From Rozella allomycis CSF55 (Eukaryota), in assembly GCA_000442015.1 (NCBI GenBank), contig KE561324.1, forward strand, positions 62,001-120,124: DNA of 58,124 nucleotides, given 5' to 3'. Positions 5,394 to 45,299 of the stretch are shown here, in pieces (the stretch's first letter is position 1; each line of letters opens with the position of its first letter). The notes beneath the pieces were generated by a model, which was given only the letters and a program-made list of their open reading frames with translations, searched no databases and was not told where the DNA came from. Position numbers and translations under genes: made by a program.

Positions 5394-6552
5394 CTATGTC
5401 AACGATGCCAGAGATCTCTTAAAAGATGATCTCTTTGTATTCAGCCATTTATACACATAAAAATCAGATAATTCTACGCCTTTTCTATCACGGATAATGT
5501 CATTAAACGCTTCGGGATTTTGGCAATACCCATGGTGTCCCTTGCCAGGAATGACAAAAAAATTAGCGTCTATCTTGTGTTGATGCATCGATTCTCGGAG
5601 TTCATTAGAGACATAATTCAAGTCAATCCAATCACGCTCTCCGCAAATTATGTCGACTTTCATAGGAAGCTGGTGACTGTGATTCAGCAGTTTAGTAACA
5701 GGTGAATGCCATCTTATCCCCCTTGTCATTTCAATGAGATTCATAAAAGCACTACCCCCTGAATTTGGCAAACAGTTTGATGATGCTAGGTAATCAGCAA
5801 ACAAGTCTTCTCTAAAAGGATAGTATTTCCCTATGTTTGGCTGCATCAATCTAATAAGGCTTTTATAAAAGAAAAAAGGCGTATTAAATTGATTTTGATT
5901 CATTATTCTAATGATGAGTTTTAGAGCCATGTCACTCATTAATGATGCTTCCTGTGGGTAGGTTAAATTCCTGAAACCAATAATCTAAAATAAATGAAAT
6001 TACCAACTGGTGAAGCTAATATTAATCTGTTTATATGTGATGATCCATTTTGTAATGCATATTGAGATGCGAAATAACTTCCTAAACTATGCCCAACTAG
6101 TGAAAAGTCTTGTAAACATAGACTTGCTCTCCATTTCTCAAAAACAGAATTGTAGAAATTTATAATTCGACCATGATCCATCCCGCTAAAATCCAGTCTA
6201 CTGCTGAGACCCCACCCAATCATGTCAATACAGTACACATCAGAAAAACCTATTCAACAAATATATTATCTTTACTTTGAGCATGCAATATTGTGTTTGT
6301 CCAATTTGCTATTCCTGATCCATATCCATGAAGCATTACTAAAGGAGGTGCCCGCGGATTATTTGATTTTACCAACAAAGTATTCACATATATATCTTGA
6401 TCATCAATATTAATCTTAATCCAAAATTTCTGTCGACGGGGAAAGTAACTTAAGATTTGGTTCTCGATCATCAATGCTTTCATAAATATATTGTATTTCA
6501 CATTTGGGCCTAAATCATGGCACCTGACATAATTAAGTCGTGATAAAGTCAT
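5394..6552 (-). CDS. Alpha/beta hydrolase, ABHD4/5 (ICT1/CLD1)-like lipase/acyltransferase; start uncertain
   Basis: Motifs LVMLHGYGSG, IDMIGWGLSSR, GHSLG, GERDWI and GHH. One 26-nt GT-AG intron plus an inferred GT-TG intron at 5978-6003. Confidence 0.8.
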
Positions 6553-19998: not shown

Positions 19999-22350
19999 TT
20001 ATTTTTCTTCTTGTTTTTCTTCATCGTCACTCTCAGGAAAAACTTCGCCGTATTCTTTTAATTTTGATTTGTAAAATTTCACTTCTTGTTCTTGTTCACC
20101 AACGCAGGCTAAAAGATCGTTGAATTGTTCCTTTTCGTTTAAAAGTTCTGTTTCTTTAGTCTTTAATTGAACTAGAAGCTTTTCAACATTTTCTGAAAGG
20201 CTTTTTATTGTATTTTCAAGCTCTTCAATCTTTTTGGTGAATTGAACTTCTTTTTCTTGTTTTTCTGATTCTAATTTTTCAATTTTAAGTTTTAATGATT
20301 GAATTTCTTTATCTTGATTAGATTGTGGCTTGGAACTCTTCTTTTTAGAAAAAGCGTCATGGACGACAATTGAAGCTCGTTTAAAAAAATCTACAAATGA
20401 ATTATCAAAATAAATTTCTGAATTTTCAGGCATTTCCAAAGTTTTCGATACTTGAAAGAATGGGCTGTCTGAAATCCTTTTAAGTCTTGAAAAGAACAAA
20501 TCTAGTCCAATCCTTGTGGTAACAATTGGCAGCAAGTCACTCTTTTTTATTTTAGAGTCATCTGTGAACTCATATGAAATTCCTAACAACAAGGCAGCTA
20601 AACCCTGCACAATATTGTCAACCCCTGTAGATTGACTAATCAACTCGATAAAGAATTGAAGTCTATAAGATTCATTAAACACCAAAGAAATTGATTTTGG
20701 AGATTCAAATGCTAAATAGCAGAGTAGTTCCAAGTAAGCAATCGGAATTCTTTGATTAACGTTATTTTCTCTTGATGAGGCTATTAATTGTTCTGTTATA
20801 CTCTCAATTAATGAAATTTCTGTCTTTTCTCCATATTTAACTCTTTAACTTCAAACTCCAGTCTTACCTGTTGGAATCATAAATTCTGGTGCATAACTCT
20901 TGTGTTCTTCGTTAAACAAAGATCTAATAAAGAAAGACGAGAATAAAACTCTGTAAGAATCTTTTCTAGAATTTTGCCAATCGAGCAAAGTATGAAGAAT
21001 CAGATTTGGCAAAGTCTCTTGATTATCAAGATTCTTTAGCTGTTCAAATAAAGCGCCCGACAATTTATTATTTCTGCACATTAAACACAAAATTAAAAAC
21101 ATATATGATAACTTACTTCTATTAAGTAAACTGAAGCTAAACGAATTGGTAGATGATCAACCCTGGTATACAAGTTGCGACCAAAAAACAACAATGCAGA
21201 CTCATTCTCAGTGTTTAAATTAAAAATATATTCTTGATTTTTTTCAAAACCACGAATCATATCGGCTACAGTGTAAATGGCACTGGTTTTGACAGACTCA
21301 TCAAAGTCAGTTTGGCTCAAAAGAAAATGTGTAATTTTAAATAATGCCTGACTAGAATAGAGACAATTCTACTTAAATTCAAGAGTTTAAAAATACTTGA
21401 TTGAGATTGGTAGATTGTGAATCTGGAAATACCAAAATTCTAATCAGTTGGAGCGCCTTTTTAAAATTGTTAATCATCTGTCTAGTCTTTTTTTCTTCCG
21501 TTTCTAGATTGTCAAACAAATGCACCAGTTTATTGATACAAGCAGTTTCTCTAAAATAATTCTGTAACATGCGATTAACTATTTTACTTGATTTGATACA
21601 TTATAATGAAGAAGATTAATCATCAATTGCAAACAATCTTGAACTACTATATCCCCCTTCAGTGACCCTTGCTCAAAAATAATCTCAAGACATCGTTCAA
21701 ATGTATTTTCAAACGCAATAATTTTCTGTATCTCGGCATTAGACTCCGTCAATGAGATTAATAAAAGAATTCCCTCTGTTCAAGAACCATATTTAAACCA
21801 TACCATTCCTCAACACTTCATTCTCCGCATCAAGCAAATCAACTAGCTTTGAAACACCCATAGGCGCAATAATTAATCCTTCTTGCAACTCTTCCGGTTT
21901 TTGCTTTAACAGCAACGACATGAATTGTATGGTATCATACCGCACATGAAAATCAGCAGCATCCAGCATATTAACAATCAAGCTAACATTACTAGCATCC
22001 TATCACACACAAATAACTATTTTTACCTTTACTACCATCTCTGAAAACTGAAGGCCTTGGTCAGTATCCGAACAAACATAGTTTAATGCTTCTATTACAG
22101 CCTTGGACATGTCCAAATCTTCCATATCGCTTGACTGCAGTGCTTTAATAAATAAATCTAATCCTTTGGTTCCTACAAGTAATGGGTAATCCTTGGAAAG
22201 CCCTTTCAATGCCTTTAATGCACCTCTGCGATCATCAAGAAGGGTAGCATGTCGAAATCGATCACAGAGTTTGTCAATAGTAATATCTACAGAGGGTTGT
22301 TCTGCTTTATCGCCTAAAAGTGCGTTGTAACTGTTTGCCAGAAAATTCAT
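19999..22350 (-). CDS. USO1: Vesicle tethering factor USO1/p115
   Basis: Motifs ATLLDDRR, DFHVRYDTIQ, IQKIIAFEN and IVQGLAALLLGI; short coiled coil; 6 introns, including GT-TG at 21088-21116. Confidence 0.9.
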
Positions 22351-24645: not shown

Positions 24646-26282
<1,637 letters not shown>

Positions 26283-28214: not shown

Positions 28215-28580
28215 ATGGTAAGTATTTTATAATTATTCCGACTCTTTTACTCTCCCATATCATTTTTTACATCTTAGAACAAATTTAACATTTAGGGTGC
28301 GTCACAAAAGAAGAAAAAATGGTCCAAAGGAAAGGTTAAGGAAAAGTCCAACAACGCTGTTACTTTTGACAAGAACACCTACGACCGTCTTTTCAAAGAA
28401 GTTCCTACCTATAAACTCATCACTCCAGCAGTCTTGATGGATCGTTTGAAGATCACCGGATCTCTTGCTCGTCGTGCTTTAAGAGAATTCGAAGAAAAAG
28501 GTCTTATTCGCCCAGTTGTTAGCCATTCCACTTTGAAAGCTTATACTCGTGCCACTGCTGCTGTTGCTGAAGCTAAATAA
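28215..28580 (+). CDS. RPS25: 40S ribosomal protein eS25
   Basis: [18 protein letters not shown]...[11 protein letters not shown]...[10 protein letters not shown], with a 78-nt intron at 28218-28295. Confidence 0.95.
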
Positions 28581-31806: not shown

Positions 31807-32979
31807 ATGAGTACTTTTTGCATTGATTTATTAATCAAGGAATGTGGTATATCATTTCTTTTCTTTAAACTTAGGCTTGGATAACGTTAGCCAGCCTACG
31901 TTAGCATTCTTTGGTTGTAACATGCCAAATCCAATTGATGTTAATTACGATATTTTACTTAGGTATGTACACGTAAACTCAGGAAATCAGTGATATTTTA
32001 CAAAAGCTTGATGAATATGTAGAAAATGATTATGTTTTAATCATGTTCAATGCTGAAACTCGTCACAGGCCAGCAATTTCATGGTTATTTAAAGCCTACA
32101 AATCACTTGATAGGAAATATAGAAAGAACTTGAAACAACTTATTGTTGTTCATCCTTCCAGTATGGTCATTTTTCTTATGAACGCCATGAAAAAGATAAT
32201 TAGGTAGAAATTTGCCGTTACCGTTAAATTAGTCCAAAGTTTGGAAAGAAGCTCTTTTATGTTAATGCCATAGCAGATTTACAACCTTTCATTGATATAA
32301 AGCAAATTCCTGTACCGAATGAAGTCATGGAATATGATTTTAGAATTCATGGAATTGAGAGGCACGCGGCTTCATTAACTGACTTGAAACAGCCAGGTTC
32401 CTTTTTTAAGCTTAATCTTTCGCTCATAATGCCTGAAGACAATTTACCCAGAGGTTGGTCAATACTAGTTGAATACATAAGGGACAATGGTAAAAGATGT
32501 TTGTCGTTTAAAGATCAGGAAAGGATATCCAGGGAATCTTTCGAAAGTCCCCCGCGTCATCCGAAATTTTGAAGTTAAAGAATGGTTTTGACAGAGCTGA
32601 AATGAATTTAGAAGGAGTTGACGTTATGGTTGCTGCATCATTGTTAAAAATATTTTTGCGGGAGCTGCCACGGCCAATTTTTAACGATCAAGCTATAAAG
32701 TTTGCAATTGAATGGACTGAGGAAATACCACTTGAGAATTTTTTTGATTTAATTGAAAAGAGAGAGAGGATTCTATTCTTATCTCTGTTGAGCCTTTTGC
32801 ATGATATTTCTGTGAATAGCAAAGACAATTTTATGACTAGCCATAATTTAGCGATAGTTTTCAGCCCCAACTTGACTGATGTGATTGATTACTCGACAAT
32901 ATCGTCGATAACAAACATTTTGACCTCATGTATAGAAAATTATGAGAAAATGATTAAAGATGTACAAGTAAATAAATAA
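31807..32979 (+). CDS. BCH/CRAL-TRIO + RhoGAP protein (ARHGAP1/p50RhoGAP-like)
   Basis: LDEYVENDY, RKYRKNLKQLIVVHP, QGIFRKS, ASLLKIFLRELP and NLAIVFSPNL; 4 introns. Confidence 0.85.
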
Positions 32980-32996: not shown

Positions 32997-34815
32997 TTAT
33001 TGAATTGAGTATTCATCTGGTATAATTTGAATTTGTTTAGAAAAGGTTATCGGTTCTCCAGAGTTAACTTGTGCCACTGAAATAATCTTTTTAAATCATT
33101 AAAGCATTATTACCTCTAAATTTGACATTAATGTTTCAGATTTGAAATAGGCGTCTACGGGAAAGAAGTCGTTGGAGGAAGAAATATCGTCTACCGAAAA
33201 CTCTAAAATTCCATTGGATGTATTTTTGTCGATAACTGGAATAATCCAAGAGAGAGTTCTATTTAACCGATCGTATCTGTGTTCTCCTACTATTTCTTGT
33301 ACGATTGGTTGTTGATTAGAACTATTTATTAAATCGATTGAGAATTAATACGGGATGTGAATTTGAATCATGACGTCAGTTAAAATCAGGTCGTTTCTTA
33401 AGAGTTCATATTCAACATTGACGTCAGCATGACCCTTGTCGCAAGTGGGCCAGCAAGTAACTTTAAAAAAAATAGGAAAGACATACTTGATAAAGGAATT
33501 TGATCTTCATCTTGAGAAGTAAATCTCCATTTTAATAAGCCTAAGGATTGATTAAGTGGCAATGGTCTATTAGGATCTCTGAGTACCAAAACCTTTTCAT
33601 TTGCGAAACTCTTCTTATCAACGTTTGGATGAGTCATTTAATGTAAAAAGAAGAGATTACTTTAAATTGATAATTTTTATCGTCTGAATGAGAACATTGA
33701 ATCTTTAGACAAGTTTTGTCATTGTCTGACACCAAAATGGATAGTTCGCCTTTAACTTCGAAATGATGAATACCTCCATCTCGTGATACAGCCATTTCAA
33801 TTCTCTCTTCAGCAGTTATATGAACCCTTGTAACATTTAGAAGGGAAATTTACGAGTCTTTTTGAATGGAATCTATTGGGGCAATAGAGGCAGACTCAAT
33901 TGGATAACTTTCTGACGATGGACTAGTGAATACAGATTCTGAAAACCCAGTTTCTTTCTTTACAATATCCATCAACTCTGCGCCCTTTTCTTTCCTTCCA
34001 AGTTTCATCCCACGGCTTGGATTGGCAATAATCCTACAGTTGAGATTTAAATAAAGCACTACGTTGAGGGCTCTTTAGGCTTTGGTTGTTCATACTGCCT
34101 AACGTAGTTAGTCTCCACAGGCATGGAAGAATACTCCATCCCACTTTTCATACCACCCATGCCTGTCGCAAAGCTTGCTCTTTTTTGTTCTCTTCTTTGC
34201 ATTTCAAGTTGCTTAGCTTTTAATTTAGCAGCTTCGCGCGCTTCTCTCTCTTTCATCCTTGCTAGAGCTTCTTGGACTCGTTCATCGTGTGAATCCATTT
34301 CAATAATTGTCTTTAGCTGAGAAACACTTAAACTTTCTCTATATCCCATATTCACTATTTCATCAAATGCAAAAATTAATTCAAAGGCATTCTTTTTAAC
34401 CTTTTCATCTAAATGCCTTCAATTTACTTGCTCTTCGTTGACTGTTTTGCAATACTCGGGAACTATCCTTGCAAATAAATGTAACGTCTCTAAATCCTAT
34501 ACTTAAATGCACAATTTTTTACCAAAAGTATATTAGACGTCTTTGTAGTAAGCATCACCAAATAGAGGCTCTCCATAGGTTGATATACAAACCTAAGATC
34601 GTCACTCTCCACAAAAGTATGCTCTTGTCCTTCATCTATTAATCTTGGAAATGATGCTAAGAGCCCTTCAACTTTACTACGAGACATTTCGACAAATTGA
34701 CGAGACACCAGAGCTAAATTTGTTGCAATAAATTAAATATTTACCATTTCCATTTTTATTACATAACGCAACTGCTAAAACAGACTAGCTTTCATACACT
34801 TATTTTACTTACCAT
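32997..34815 (-). CDS. RET2: Coatomer subunit delta
   Basis: [26 protein letters not shown] and QFK/THPNVDK; 10 introns, including GT-TG at 33635-33660. Confidence 0.95.
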
Positions 34816-39408: not shown

Positions 39409-39923
39409 AATGATAAAGACTAAAAACATTATGTTGGCGATTTGCCAGATGTGGTAGATTCTCAATACGTTTTTCAATTTCATTTTCGCACTCGCTTCTG
39501 ATCTACATCGTGCACGAAATCAGATGGTTCGCGGTATATGTTGCAAGTTCACGTGTTTTGGCTTGCAGGTGCATTTCTCTTTCAGATAAATCCATTAAAA
39601 TGAGGAGCAGCTCAGTTTTCTCCAATAACTTGCAAAGAATAGAAATCCTATATTGGTTATTTAATGTGCCGGTGAACATATGCTCTCTTTTTGAAATATA
39701 GGATCTAATGAGCGTATTTTACACGTGGATTCACCTTCTGTCAAAGACAAACTTTTGTGGTTACTCTTTATTTAAAACGTCAAAGGTAAGTAAAGGAGTA
39801 GACTTTGAAGTATTTTGAGGTCTTAAAAATTGGACTAACACTCATTTGAACTAAAATATACTATTAATGTGGAGAATATATGCGATTTATATAATATGTT
39901 ACAAGTCATCAAATCAAGTAAAA

Positions 39924-40314: not shown

Positions 40315-40491
40315 CGTTGTTACCAAGTGGCTGGGTGATAAAGTAACGTTAATCAAAAGTGAAGTAATCAACTTTAATCATTTCAAAAATCTAATTAATT
40401 ACAATTGAGTAATCACTCAATGATCGCTGGTTTACTCATAACTCAAGTCATAAATAAAATAAAACATTTAAATTTTAAAAGTGCCGTTTAT

Positions 40492-43400
40492 TTAAATGTC
40501 AAAGTCGTCGTCTTCGGAATCAGAGACAGCAATACCTTGCTTCTTTTTCAATTTCTTTGCCTTTTCTTTAGCCTTTAATTCCTTGCGAGATAATTTCTTA
40601 GTTGACTTGACTTTGGTGACGTTTCCGAAAGCATCGATAGTTTCTTCTTGTTCCTTTTGTTCAATCTTTTCACCCTTCCCAGCATCAGTAACACCGTCGA
40701 TTGAGAGAACACCCTTGTCAACGTTCCAAGTGGTTGGGCAGAGAGAAGAAGTGAATTCAGAGTTGTGAGAGATCATAATGACACCACCTTGAAATTCGTT
40801 GATAGCATGAGCAAGAGCACCTAAAGAGTCACGATCCAAATAGTTGGTAGGTTCATCTAAAACAACAATGTGAGGATTCATCCACATAGCAGCACCAATG
40901 ACAACTTTAACCTTTTGACCACCAGAGAGACCACGAATACGAGAGTGAGTAGCGAATTCAGGATCAAGACCAAAATCAATTAAATGTTTTTCAATGTTCT
41001 TTTGAGTTAAAGGTTTAGCATAGAGACCTTGTCTAGCAGCTTCAGCATCATCAAAAGCTTGAACTAATTTTTGGAATCCCCAAGTGTCTAATTTTTCACG
41101 AGTAATCCAAGCGTTCTCTTCCATTGGCATGTTGACCCATTTGACTTCGTATTCATAAGAATTCTTCAACTTTCTTCTACCAAGCAAAGCATCAATGACA
41201 CGCTTAGTTCCTTCATACTTGACTTCCTTTTTCAATTCAGCTTCTTCTTCAGGAGTCATCTTACGAGTAGCCTTTGATAATAATTCTTTATCTTCACCAT
41301 ATTGAAAACGCCATTGGATGTATTCGTTTGGAGTCATGTCTAAATGTTGTTCTAAATGATGGAAAGCGTGTTGAGCAACATAGGCAAAACGCAAGTTGGG
41401 GTGTTTCCATACTTCACCTTCAGTTGGAATGGTTTCACCAGTCAAGAGCTTAATGATGGTAGACTTACCAGCACCGTTAGGTCCAATAACAGCAATACGA
41501 GAAGCAAGAGAACATTGAACAGTGATGTTAGAAATAGTATTCTTTTCAGCATTTGGATATTTGTAAGCACACTTCATCATCTTTAAAATAGCCTTGTCTC
41601 TAGATTTAACTCCATCAAGAAAACCAGGTTCAGGGAACTTAAATTTGATTTGAGAAGCAGAAAGTTCAAAATATGCTTTAGCTTCAGGCTTAACAGAAAC
41701 GAAATGGGTCAAGTTTCCATGGTAGATCTTCAACTTGCGAGATTCATAGTGAATGATATCAGTACAGACAGTGTTCAAGAATTTAGATTCGTGAGAGACA
41801 ATCATGCAAGTAACATCATCTAAACCATTCAAGTAGTTTTCTAACCAAGCAACATTCTTAACATCCAAGTGATTGGTTGGTTCATCAAGCAAAAGAATAT
41901 CAGCCTTCAAAAGCATAGCTCTTGCCAATTGAGTCTTCATCTTCCAACCTCCAGATAAACTGCCAACTCCCTTGTGGCAAATTTCATGTGTAAAGTTCAT
42001 TGAAAGCAAAAATTCTTCAACTTCTTTTGCTGTTGATCCCTTCATAAATTCATCTTCCAAAATGTATTCAACAACAGTCATATCAGAATCAGAAGCTTGA
42101 AGTTCGTGAGCAACGTAAACAGATCTCAATTCATCCTTTGATGGAAACCCTTCCAATTGTCCATTAGCAATAGCTCTCATCAATGTAGATTTACCACAAC
42201 CGTTATGTCCCAATAAACCATATCTACGGCCTCTCTTCATTCTCAATTTTGTATTATTCAACAAAATCATACCACCATAAGCCAATGAAAACTCACAGTT
42301 ACACAAATCAACTCCACCAATATCTTCTTCTACTTTCATATTCTCCATCTTTCTTGAAATATCTAAATCAACACTCTTCTTCAAAAACTCTTTAGTAACT
42401 TTTTCGTTCTCTTCAGTCAACAACTTGACAAATGGTCCAATAGACTTGACCCACTCAGCTTCTTCAAAGTTCTTCAATCCAATAAATGTGGAAGCCAAAT
42501 TACAAACAAAGTTGATGCACAAATCTTCAACATTTCCATTCTTGGCTCCTTTCAATCCACTCTTAATAAATCCTGTCAATGATTCAATTTCCTTCTCAAT
42601 AGCTGCTTCATCTCTAACAAACTCATTTCCTTCAGCTCCAACTTCAATCAAAACATTCTTTGCTTTGGTTGCTACCTCTCTCAACTCTGGATTAGATGCA
42701 TTCTCTATAATAGCATTCAACCCTGGCATCAACTTTGGCAAAAAGTGTTGCGCATCTTCTGGATTAGTAACCAACTTGCACATGTTTCCAATAATAATAG
42801 ATGTTTGACGCAATACAACAGTAGCTCTTTCCTTCAAACCTCTTTCCAACAATGGAACCATCACAGCTAAGGTTGGTTGATCAACTGGTCTAATAAAAGT
42901 AGTAGAAGACAACTTGTAGATAGTTTCTGGAACTTCTTCTGGCTTGGCAATGCAGCTGATGATGTCGTTCATAAATTGCTCAATATCTCCATTCTCAACA
43001 GTCTTGAAAATCTCCTTAATAGCAGCAAAGGCAGCAGTTTGCACTTGAGTCTTGGTAGACCACATGTTTTCAGTCAAGTGTGTAATGATCTCTGGCAAAT
43101 GTTGTGCAACTTCCTTTGGTCCAATAGACACAAATGATCCAAGAATATTCAAAGCTTTTTCCTTTCCTTGCCATTTCTTGCTGTTAGACATGGCTTCAAA
43201 CAAGATTGGCAACATGAATTGAACGTCTACTCCCTCAACATGCTTCAACACTGCTTCACATGCCTTCTTGGCAGCTTCTTGAACAACAGATTGCTTATCA
43301 GAATATGCATCCAAAACAGCTCCCAACATTGGCAAAACGTATGGGCAGCTAACACGCCCCTTCTTATTAGCAACAGCCTCAACAAATGCACAGGCTCCTT

Positions 43401-44061: not shown

Positions 44062-45299
44062 TTATTTCAATTTACGAAGTCTTGCGATGAAGAATCCACT
44101 AATCCCGGAACACAAAGGATCAAATCTTATGCACTTTGGCAAGGTCACTTTTCCCGGCTGAACTTTTGATGGTAAAAATGTATTAATGTCTTCTAAAACT
44201 GCATTAGGGGTGGCTCTCAAAAATTTTCTAATTATATTTTCATTTTGAGATTGAGTTAAACTAAATCTCATGTAAATGTTGATTACCTGCAAGTCGAATA
44301 GACCAACACGCCGTCTGGTTTTAACAACTTGTATCCATTTTCTAATAGTCGATACTTTTACTTATTAAAAGTATATTTACTTGTAAATCATATAACCCTT
44401 CAAGGGCAGCTTGATCCTGGATCCTCTTAAGAAAATTATCCCACTGATTAAATTCGACACACGACTTTAGATAAAAACGTAGTTTTACTTTGAGAATATG
44501 CCTTAAGGAACCATCATGTGTACATTCTGCATCAACCAAAACCTTATCATACAATGAGTTGCAAGAAATATTCGCTCGCCTCTTAAAAATATAGGATTCA
44601 TGGAATAGCGTTGGATCATCCGACTTTTGGAGCTTTGTTTTTCTTTTCTTTTGAAATGGTTCAAAAATGTTCGGAAGTTCATCTGGCGCCAGTTTGTCAA
44701 AAGTTGTCCCGTCCGTGCAATAGACTCTAGCCTTGTTGACTTTCATCCGCTTCATTATCGAGCGGCAATTATTTAATCTGGATAATGAAATATCAACGCC
44801 AGTCACACTTCCAATTCCAGAGTCACCAAGTTTGGATGCAATTACTGACAACTTTGTTCCTACTCCAACAAAAAATCCATTATTACCAGGAGCACAGCAC
44901 AAATCTAAAACTTTATCATTTGGGTTAATATCTAATGTTTCAACAGCCACTAGAGAACTTAGATCTATTCCAATAATCTAGACAAGAAAATGAAACAATC
45001 AATACCTTCCGTTCTTTATACCTAGATGTTATCAGAATCTTTAATCATTACAGAGAAGATGAGGCAATTTTGGTCGTTCCACTTATCTGGAATACATAAT
45101 CGTAGGGTGGTTCTAATTTCAGTACGCCCGGAAATTCTTTTTCTATTGTATCTGTTTCCAAAGGGTAAAGAGTGTTCCATATAAAATATCTAGGTGTTTC
45201 AACTGAATAAACTTTTGGATCCACACCTTCTTTATTAAGAAAGTCTATGAAAGCATCAGGAAAATTCATCTCAAAAGTTGAAAAATCTTGAAGCCACAT
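44062..45299 (-). CDS. RNA m5C methyltransferase (RsmB/NOP2/NSUN family)
   Basis: VLDLCCAPG/TK, DKVLVDAECTHDGS, LVYSTCS...QNE and SGFFIARLRK; about 6 introns. Confidence 0.88.

What the first reader, a model, noticed from the sequence alone, without database searches (positions are those of the whole stretch)
33635..33660. GT-TG intron in delta-COP restores the conserved QFK-THPNVDK motif
The minus strand reads CAA TTT AAA | gtaatctcttctttttacattaaatg | ACT CAT CCA AAC GTT GAT AAG. The 26-nt segment contains no AG and shifts the frame if retained. The first AG (47 nt) is in frame but would delete the conserved THPNVDK of an essential coatomer subunit.
Basis: partly seen in the sequence, partly recalled or inferred. 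Interest (0 to 1): 0.8.

Follow-up and report, generated by a model that had tools for sequence, protein, structure and literature searches.

The report
TG-ended mini-intron in delta-COP gene
In the fungal parasite Rozella allomycis, one of ten tiny introns in a vesicle-coat gene ends in TG instead of the near-universal AG, and only cutting at that TG keeps a seven-residue motif that virtually all relatives have and that the public gene models delete.

Summary
The window is Rozella allomycis CSF55. On the minus strand, 33660..33635 reads GTAATC...AAATG: 26 nt, no AG inside, with an in-frame TGA if it is retained.

It lies in a delta-COP gene with ten mini-introns. The other nine are GTA..AG, 26-31 nt long.

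Removing exactly these 26 nt joins QFK to THPNVDK.
- 152 of 153 homologs carry a block here, 149 of them exactly 7 residues long.
- A profile built from those homologs scores the TG model 33.5 bits above the AG model.

Both public proteins (EPZ31028.1, RKP21384.1) use the AG 21 nt downstream. They lack THPNVDK and also 23 N-terminal residues.

Contigs from three DNA runs reproduce the TG with no variant, so a base error is unlikely.

No RNA data could be obtained, so use of the TG is inferred and not shown. In humans, TG acceptors are known only as alternatives within 28 nt of an AG, and AG>TG mutants switch to neighbouring AGs. That fact keeps the rival reading alive.

Two further candidate GT..TG introns lie in the same window, but both are ambiguous.

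Verdict: probably a genuine GT-TG intron (about 0.5). It would be a new member of a known kind.

The parts
32997..34815 (-). delta-COP (coatomer delta) coding region, 11 exons. It gives 513 aa with the 26-nt model and 506 aa with the 47-nt model.
   Evidence: 100% identity to 'coatomer subunit delta [Rozella allomycis CSF55]'; both spliced models are open, with a single terminal stop; homologs.
33635..33660 (-). Intron 7, the finding: 26 nt, GTAATC...AAATG, ends in TG, has no internal AG, and has an in-frame TGA if retained.
   Evidence: Donor and upstream-acceptor context scores fall at the 25th percentile of the 95 predicted short introns, and the length lies inside the 26-31 nt window.
33655..33660 (-). 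5' splice site GTAATC.
   Evidence: GTA is the donor in 95 of 95 predicted short introns.
33635..33636 (-). Terminal dinucleotide TG, the proposed non-canonical 3' splice site.
   Evidence: It is reproduced without any variant in contigs of X1, X2 and X4.
33614..33634 (-). 21 nt encoding THPNVDK. This stretch is exon under the TG model and intron under the public annotation.
   Evidence: Codon log-odds is 1.72, a value reached by only 7% of stop-free windows drawn from intron sequence; GC is 0.38 against a mean of 0.26 for introns.
33614..33615 (-). Competing AG, 21 nt downstream of the TG. It is the acceptor of the 47-nt intron used in both public protein models.
34785..34812 (-). Intron 1 (28 nt, GT-AG). 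It follows a one-codon first exon, ATG at 34813-34815.
   Evidence: The exon it joins supplies N-terminal residues that the homologs have.
34714..34744 (-). Intron 2 (31 nt, GT-AG).
34497..34522 (-). Intron 3 (26 nt, GT-AG).
   Evidence: agrees with P0001.
34401..34427 (-). Intron 4 (27 nt, GT-AG). It skips an internal AG at 19 nt and has an in-frame TGA.
   Evidence: agrees with P0001.
34034..34062 (-). Intron 5 (29 nt, GTAGTG..AG).
   Evidence: agrees with P0001. My gene finder missed it.
33827..33853 (-). Intron 6 (27 nt, GT-AG).
   Evidence: agrees with P0001.
33461..33486 (-). Intron 8 (26 nt, GT-AG).
   Evidence: agrees with P0001.
33322..33351 (-). Intron 9 (30 nt, GT-AG).
   Evidence: agrees with P0001.
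33087..33113 (-). Intron 10 (27 nt, GT-AG).
   Evidence: agrees with P0001.

Best explanation
Segment 33660..33635 (minus strand) is a genuine major-type (U2) spliceosomal mini-intron of the Rozella allomycis delta-COP gene whose last two bases are UG instead of AG. In this genome the 3' cut appears to be placed mainly by distance, 26-31 nt from a GUA donor, and closer AGs are routinely passed over. At the second catalytic step the spliceosome ligates at UG|A. This gives an in-frame mRNA that keeps [11 protein letters not shown]. The AG 21 nt downstream may help early intron recognition, and it may compete to give a minor isoform lacking 7 residues, as in human TG-AG tandem acceptors. Shown here: the anatomy, the conservation of the motif, the correctness of the DNA, and the error in the public models. 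Inferred: that UG is actually used, the distance rule, and any role for the downstream AG.
For: (1) Homology. 152 of 153 homologs have the block, 149 of them with exactly 7 residues. The first 8 residues of the exon are identical to bovine THPNVDKK. Pfam positions 72 and 73 abut across the junction. The homolog profile prefers the TG model by 33.5 bits.
(2) The 21 nt behind the TG look coding. Their codon log-odds is 1.72, reached by 7% of stop-free intron-derived windows, and GC is 0.38 against an intron mean of 0.26. A stretch that had long been intronic would not still spell the family consensus.
(3) Apart from TG, the segment is a typical local intron. It has a GTA donor (95 of 95). At 26 nt it is one of the commonest lengths (the 95 short introns run 26:21, 27:29, 28:26, 29:11, 30:5, 31:3). 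The other nine introns of this gene are 26-31 nt. A 47-nt intron would be an outlier: in the AG-only model only 4 of 99 introns exceed 31 nt, and 2 of those 4 are this case and the p115 case.
(4) AG is not chosen as 'first AG'. 62 of 95 predicted short introns skip an internal AG.
(5) The DNA is right in three runs.
(6) When any acceptor dinucleotide is allowed at equal penalty, 3 of the 5 non-AG introns chosen end in TG: this one, one in the p115/Uso1 gene and one in an alpha/beta-hydrolase gene. In single-dinucleotide runs at penalty -4, TG gives 3 and every other dinucleotide gives at most 1.
(7) In an AlphaFold model of the closest homolog (P0007; pLDDT about 98 in this stretch), the block spans the end of a strand, a tight HPN turn and the start of a short helix. 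It is therefore an ordered core element.
(8) TG is the documented functional non-AG acceptor in humans, always with an AG within 28 nt. Here the AG is 21 nt away.
Against: No RNA evidence of any kind. Human AG>TG mutants activated neighbouring AGs, not the TG, and human TG sites are never the sole acceptor. In a fungus with a transcript-based annotation, GT-TG made up only 22 splice sites, or 0.024% (Ganoderma table), so the prior is low. The -3 base is A, whereas human TG sites prefer a pyrimidine there, and A is the minority choice locally (27 of 95). The AG at 47 nt is in frame and has an ordinary acceptor context (36th percentile). Two public annotations chose it, though they may not be independent of each other. 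Deleting the whole mu-homology domain was tolerated in yeast, as cited, so a 7-residue loss might be viable. The two other TG candidates are ambiguous. The extra 48 nt in p115 score like intron (codon log-odds 0.02). The hydrolase has canonical GT-AG alternatives, though with GTT donors. My length and donor statistics come from a self-trained gene finder. It favours what it has already learned, and it also calls some spurious antisense genes.
Confidence: 0.5

Rival explanations
1. The public annotation is right. After an AG-to-TG substitution at the old acceptor, the spliceosome uses the next AG (47-nt intron, 33660..33614). The protein then lacks THPNVDK. The change is recent enough that the now-intronic 21 nt have not yet decayed.
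For: The 47-nt GT-AG intron is in frame and is the only canonical solution. Its acceptor context is ordinary (36th percentile). Human AG>TG mutants always switched to neighbouring AGs. Loss of the entire mu-homology domain did not affect yeast growth, as cited. Both public proteins use this junction. At least one longer intron appears to exist in the window, the roughly 78-nt first intron of the RPS25-like gene.
Against: It removes a block present in 152 of 153 homologs and costs 33.5 bits. The block is an ordered strand-turn-helix element in the homolog model. The rest of the Rozella mu-homology domain is well conserved (40% identity to a Bifiguratus protein over residues 240-483), so the domain is not decaying. 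The 21 nt are still perfect consensus and look coding. A 47-nt intron lies outside the 26-31 nt window that holds 95 of 99 predicted introns. The same annotations also miss 23 conserved N-terminal residues, so they are not transcript-accurate.
Confidence: 0.3
2. The gene is damaged. The acceptor mutation causes intron retention or mis-splicing, and delta-COP, or at least its mu-homology domain, is on its way to becoming a pseudogene in this reduced parasite.
For: Retention gives an immediate TGA stop. The organism is a reduced intracellular parasite (general knowledge). The domain is dispensable in yeast, as cited.
Against: There is no other lesion. Both spliced models are open over 506-513 codons, and the full model scores 632 bits against the family profile. 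The downstream exons remain conserved. Coatomer delta is otherwise universal in the 153 homologs gathered.
Confidence: 0.07
3. Sequence artefact: the true base at 33636 (minus strand) is A, and the intron is an ordinary GT-AG intron.
For: A single A-to-T change would explain everything. The restored end AAAAG would resemble neighbouring introns.
Against: Contigs of three runs at depths 289, 599 and 79 span the site with no other letter, while the same table does report minor variants elsewhere in the 20 kb laid.
Confidence: 0.02

Closest known systems
Human TG-AG tandem 3' splice sites in U2-type introns (Szafranski et al. 2007, PMC2374985; abstract and section 12 read)
   Same: A GT donor with a normal consensus, TG as the terminal dinucleotide, an AG within 28 nt (21 nt here), and a purine at +1 (A here).
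   Different: Human TG sites are never the sole or productive-only acceptor, and they favour a pyrimidine at -3. Here the TG junction is the only one that yields the conserved protein, -3 is A, the intron is only 26 nt, and no transcript evidence exists yet.
Single-gene GT-TG junctions (GNAS, TSPYL2) listed in the human non-canonical splice-site survey (Parada et al. 2014, PMC4176328; passages read)
   Same: U2-like introns removed at a TG acceptor.
   Different: Those are alternative, tissue-specific events in long mammalian introns, backed by RNA-seq. The Rozella case rests on homology alone.
Transcript-based census of fungal non-canonical splice sites (Ganoderma lingzhi, PMC11590231; passage with table 1 read)
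   Same: It shows that GT-TG junctions do occur in fungi.
   Different: There GT-TG is 22 sites (0.024%), no commoner than other rare classes. In this window there would be 1 to 3 in about 100 predicted introns.
Length-constrained ultra-short introns, such as the roughly 25-nt introns of Paramecium (recalled from memory; no call)
   Same: A very narrow length distribution and a GTA donor. 31 of 34 predicted introns whose length is a multiple of three carry an in-frame stop, though my finder is biased towards such cases.
   Different: This is a different lineage (a fungal relative), the genetic code is standard, and as far as I recall those systems keep a strict AG.

Membership tests
U2-type (major) spliceosomal intron of this genome | 5' end GT with the local consensus GTA(A/T) | tested here: met
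   GTAATC. 95 of 95 predicted short introns start with GTA and 79 of 95 with GTAA.
U2-type (major) spliceosomal intron of this genome | Length within the local window | tested here: met
   26 nt. 95 of 99 predicted introns are 26-31 nt, and the other nine introns of the same gene are 26-31 nt.
U2-type (major) spliceosomal intron of this genome | 3' terminal dinucleotide AG | tested here: not met
   It ends in TG and has no AG anywhere in the 26 nt.
U2-type (major) spliceosomal intron of this genome | Removal restores the reading frame and the conserved protein | tested here: met
   QFK|THPNVDK, a gain of 33.5 bits, and abutting Pfam positions 72/73.
U2-type (major) spliceosomal intron of this genome | The spliced junction is seen in RNA | not testable with these tools
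   No RNA holder was listed. The RNA run X11 gave only 34-50 nt mismatched pieces and none in this gene's central bins.
TG-AG tandem acceptor (Szafranski 2007) | A TG acceptor with an AG acceptor no more than 28 nt away | tested here: met
   There are AGs 21 nt and 24 nt downstream, both in frame.
TG-AG tandem acceptor (Szafranski 2007) | Both junctions are used, and TG is never the sole site | not testable with these tools
   This needs transcripts, and none were available.
TG-AG tandem acceptor (Szafranski 2007) | Pyrimidine preferred at -3 and purine at +1 | tested here: inconclusive
   -3 is A, which does not fit. +1 is A, which fits. Both are preferences, not rules.
U12-type (minor) intron | Extended 5' consensus (A/G)TATCCTT (recalled) and a TCCTTAAC-like branch site (recalled) | tested here: not met
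   The donor is GTAATC and no such branch motif occurs in the 26 nt. The consensus strings are recalled from memory and come from no call.
Coatomer delta subunit (delta-COP) | An N-terminal longin-type domain (PF01217) plus a C-terminal mu-homology domain (PF00928) | tested here: met
   Precomputed Pfam domains of P0001; exon hits to Adap_comp_sub; 521 library proteins at E<=1e-30; matches to PDB delta-COP chains.

The most novel reading that the evidence does not exclude
Rozella allomycis places the 3' cut of its 26-31 nt introns chiefly by distance from the GUA donor and accepts UG as a constitutive terminal dinucleotide in roughly 1-3% of introns. The window offers three such cases: delta-COP, p115/Uso1 and an ABHD4/5-like hydrolase. 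If so, TG would be a regular and sometimes sole productive acceptor, something not seen in humans, and AG-only gene models of this genome would be systematically wrong at such sites.
Probability: 0.25. Interest if true: 0.7.

Novelty: new member of a known kind. Interest (0 to 1): 0.5.

Why it matters
If the TG is used, this would be a case where the only protein-preserving junction of an intron in a core trafficking gene has a non-AG acceptor, and it would occur in a lineage that branches next to Microsporidia and has extremely short introns. That would bear on how the second splicing step picks its site when the intron is barely longer than the spliceosome's minimum. It would also test whether the human rule that TG works only beside an AG is general.

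There is a practical result whatever the RNA outcome. Both public delta-COP entries for this model cryptomycete lack a near-universal 7-residue block and 23 conserved N-terminal residues. At least two more genes in the same 58 kb may be mis-modelled for the same reason, because AG-only gene finders cannot see such introns.

Tried and rejected
RNA evidence. No RNA holder was listed for the gene. The only RNA run offered, X11, gave 13 short, partly fitting, mismatched pieces and nothing usable.

Whole genome. None is held for this window, so I could not make a genome-wide count of TG introns or check the splicing-factor genes.

Relatives with the same intron. One scan of metagenome contigs gave two loci (L001, L002). 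They are only 36-37% identical and have a continuous match, so they say nothing about this intron. The word-index homolog searches returned few hits.

p115 candidate.
- The flanking exons are too divergent for PDB or Pfam to fix the junction.
- The alignment of the annotated protein to bovine p115 puts a 3-residue gap at the junction.
- By eye, the 16 skipped residues resemble the bovine stretch there. I did not compute this, because the PDB sequence is not a stored protein.
- The yeast alignment does not cover the site.

Hydrolase candidate. PDB and Atlas searches could not resolve a one-residue difference between the competing models.

RNA folding. Around the intron the z-score is -0.15. An 8-bp helix between the intron's CUCUUCUU and the AAGAAGAG at the downstream AGs is no better than in shuffled sequences.

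AT-AC solutions. Five frame-restoring AT..AC pairs exist, but none has a minor-intron consensus, so I rejected them.

Other non-AG calls by my finder. The call at +52977 (AT or CA) lies in a doubtful antisense model. The call at -53842 (CC) is a tie with a canonical 30-nt intron. I rejected both.

Other checks.
- No tRNA or Rfam family was found in the window.
- Earlier-findings look-ups returned nothing relevant.
- A literature search for Rozella + splice site + non-canonical found 0 papers. The Rozella + spliceosome and Rozella + intron listings showed nothing on acceptor dinucleotides. No supplements were consulted.

Full report
**What is there.** The window is AT-rich (about 35% GC). Its exons match 'coatomer subunit delta [Rozella allomycis CSF55]' at 100% identity, so the source is the cryptomycete Rozella allomycis.

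The delta-COP gene lies on the minus strand at 34815..32997. It is broken by ten very short introns. Nine of them are GTA...AG, with lengths 28, 31, 26, 27, 29, 27, 26, 30 and 27 nt.

The seventh intron, 33660..33635, is the finding: GTAATCTCTTCTTTTTACATTAAATG. It is 26 nt long, contains no AG and ends in TG. If it is retained, the frame stops at a TGA that straddles the junction.

**Is the motif argument sound?** Yes.
- I collected 153 delta-COP homologs (5, 148) and aligned them with the annotated Rozella protein.
- Where that protein reads [12 protein letters not shown] it has a gap. 152 of the 153 homologs have residues in that gap, and 149 have exactly seven. The exception is a truncated 361-aa entry.
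- 134 read xHP, and position 3 is P in 148 of the 149 seven-residue blocks. The commonest residues spell T-H-P-N-I/V-D-K.
- The DNA directly behind the TG encodes THPNVDK. The exon aligns from its very first residue to bovine THPNVDKK in solved delta-COP structures.
- Pfam's Adap_comp_sub profile runs 15-72 in the upstream exon and 73-112 in the downstream exon.
- A profile built from the 153 homologs scores the full ten-intron model at 632.4 bits with the 26-nt intron, 598.9 bits with the 47-nt intron and 596.3 bits with the 50-nt intron.
- In an AlphaFold model of the closest homolog (P0007; mean pLDDT 85.6, about 98 in this stretch), the block covers the end of a beta strand, a tight HPN turn, a bridge residue and the start of a short helix. 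It is an ordered core element of the mu-homology domain.

**Is the base right?** I laid contigs of three DNA runs on 20 kb around the gene. Each has one long piece across the site: X1 (6809 nt, depth 289), X2 (7417 nt, depth 599) and X4 (9720 nt, depth 79). No other letter is listed between 32617 and 39259, although minor variants at about a third of the depth are reported elsewhere in X1 and X2. These runs may be the source of the assembly and probably represent one strain. They rule out an assembly error but not a strain-specific mutation.

**What the public record says.** Two database proteins of 483 aa exist, EPZ31028.1 and RKP21384.1. They differ by one residue. Both read [12 protein letters not shown], which means they splice from the same GT to the AG 21 nt further on (a 47-nt intron) and drop THPNVDK.

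Both also start at MSRSKVEG. Homologs match from their residue 24. The window encodes the missing 23 residues through two more mini-introns and a one-codon first exon, which adds about 48 bits. These models are therefore not transcript-accurate, and their choice of the AG carries little weight.

**How local introns look.** No genome is held for this window. I therefore wrote a small Viterbi gene finder and trained it on the window itself.

With AG acceptors only, it predicts 99 introns on both strands. 95 of them are 26-31 nt long. All 95 start with GTA, and 62 of the 95 skip at least one internal AG. The four longer predictions are:
- this intron, at 47 nt;
- a 77-nt intron in the p115/Uso1 gene;
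- a 94-nt call that is really 30 nt + a 16-nt micro-exon + 28 nt;
- a 117-nt call that seems to be a 78-nt first intron of an RPS25 gene.

Three caveats apply. The finder reinforces the lengths and donors it has already learned. It calls some antisense 'genes'. It also missed intron 5 of delta-COP. With a flat length prior and fixed penalties, 36 of 44 introns still fell between 25 and 31 nt.

The TG intron is ordinary in donor, upstream context and length (25th percentile for both scores). The 21 nt behind it look coding: codon log-odds 1.72, reached by 7% of stop-free intron-derived windows, and GC 0.38 against an intron mean of 0.26.

**Is TG special here?** I allowed every acceptor dinucleotide at the same penalty (-4). 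The finder then chose five non-AG introns, and three of them end in TG:
- delta-COP;
- 21116..21088 in p115 (29 nt);
- 6003..5978 (26 nt), which joins the two halves of an ABHD4/5-like alpha/beta hydrolase.

In runs that allow one extra dinucleotide at a time, TG gave 3 introns and every other dinucleotide gave at most 1. Two of those other hits simply reuse the delta-COP and p115 donors. At penalty -2 the counts are TG 6, AT 5, TT 5, so the lead is modest.

Neither extra case is settled.
- **p115.** The 16 additional residues are stop-free, and by eye they resemble the bovine stretch at the junction. However, their codon score is intron-like (0.02), and they would make Rozella about 13 residues longer than bovine p115 at that point.
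- **Hydrolase.** Using the AGs at 19 or 33 nt leads to early stops, and the TG gives ...LILASPVG|FRNL.... Two GT-AG solutions with GTT donors also restore the frame, although GTT donors occur in 0 of 95 predicted introns.

**Comparison with what is known.** TG is the known functional non-AG acceptor in human U2-type introns. It was found in 36 genes, always as an alternative to an AG no more than 28 nt away. AG>TG patient mutations activated neighbouring AGs rather than the TG (PMC2374985, abstract and section 12). GT-TG junctions in GNAS and TSPYL2 are cited in PMC4176328 (passages). In Ganoderma lingzhi, GT-TG made up 22 splice sites, or 0.024% (PMC11590231, table 1 passage).

Here the AG lies 21 nt from the TG, inside the human limit. 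The case therefore fits the known kind. What would differ is that the TG junction is the protein-preserving one, and that the intron is only 26 nt long.

From memory, not from any call: in post-catalytic spliceosome structures the last G of the intron pairs with the first G, and the A at -2 contacts the branch adenosine. A U at -2 would therefore keep the G-G contact.

I found no paper on Rozella acceptor dinucleotides. The search for Rozella + splice site + non-canonical returned 0 papers, and the listings showed nothing on the subject.

**Weighing.** The homology evidence shows that the 21 nt are coding now, or were until very recently. Two live readings remain: the spliceosome ligates at TG, possibly alongside the AG, or a recent AG-to-TG change moved splicing to the AG and the protein lost seven residues.

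- the intact consensus motif and its coding look;
- the typical intron anatomy;
- the narrow length window and the habit of skipping AGs;
- the TG bias among frame-restoring non-AG candidates;
- the ordered structural position of the block.

For the second reading:
- the human mutant data;
- the low prior for GT-TG in fungi;
- the A at -3;
- the report that yeast grows without the whole delta-COP mu-homology domain (Arakel 2016, as cited in PMC6737914, passage).

I put the first at about 0.5, the second at about 0.3, gene decay at 0.07 and a base error at 0.02. A single RT-PCR across the junction would decide between them.

Noticed in passing
34713-34815 (minus strand): Both public delta-COP proteins start at MSRSKVEG, but the window encodes 23 more N-terminal residues through a one-codon first exon (ATG at 34813-34815), a 28-nt intron, a 40-nt exon and a 31-nt intron. 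Homologs match from their residue 24, and the extension adds about 48 bits against the family profile.
   Followed up: yes
21088-21116 (minus strand), in the p115/Uso1 gene at 19999-22350: Second candidate GT..TG intron: 29 nt, GTAAGT...AATTTTG. The public protein (712 aa) uses a 77-nt GT-AG intron instead. The TG model keeps 16 stop-free codons that by eye resemble the bovine p115 stretch at the junction, but their codon score is intron-like.
   Followed up: partly
5978-6003 (minus strand), between ORFs 5963-6483 and 5394-5846: Third candidate GT..TG intron: 26 nt, GTAATT...ATTATTG. It joins the nucleophile half and the C-terminal half of an ABHD4/5-like alpha/beta hydrolase (...LILASPVG|FRNL...). 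AGs at 19 and 33 nt give early stops. The canonical alternatives need GTT donors, which none of the 95 predicted introns has.
   Followed up: partly
44958-45051 (minus strand): What my finder called a 94-nt intron in an RsmB/F-type methyltransferase gene looks like a 30-nt intron, a 16-nt micro-exon and a 28-nt intron, followed by exon sequence.
   Followed up: partly
28215-28580 (plus strand): An RPS25 gene (Pfam Ribosomal_S25, E 1.9e-38) seems to have a 78-nt intron directly after its ATG. That is about three times the usual intron length in this window.
   Followed up: partly
whole window: Predicted introns are remarkably uniform. 95 of 99 are 26-31 nt, all 95 have GTA donors, there is no clear branch-site motif, and 62 of 95 skip an internal AG. 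31 of 34 introns whose length is a multiple of three carry an in-frame stop, though the finder is biased towards such cases.
   Followed up: partly
24806; 26173-26238; 32566-32617; 39715-39833; 40387-40429; 40678-40738: Clusters of minor variants at about a third of the depth appear in contigs of X1 and partly X2. This suggests a second haplotype or subpopulation in the sequenced material. There are none in the delta-COP gene.
   Followed up: no
about 34650 (minus strand), codon 14 of the annotated protein: The two public delta-COP proteins differ at one residue, P versus T. The window encodes P, and the contigs laid show no variant there.
   Followed up: no
33607-33655 (minus strand): The intron's CUCUUCUU can pair with the AAGAAGAG that holds the two downstream AGs, giving an 8-bp helix. 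The fold is no better than in shuffled sequences (z = -0.15), so this is probably chance.
   Followed up: yes
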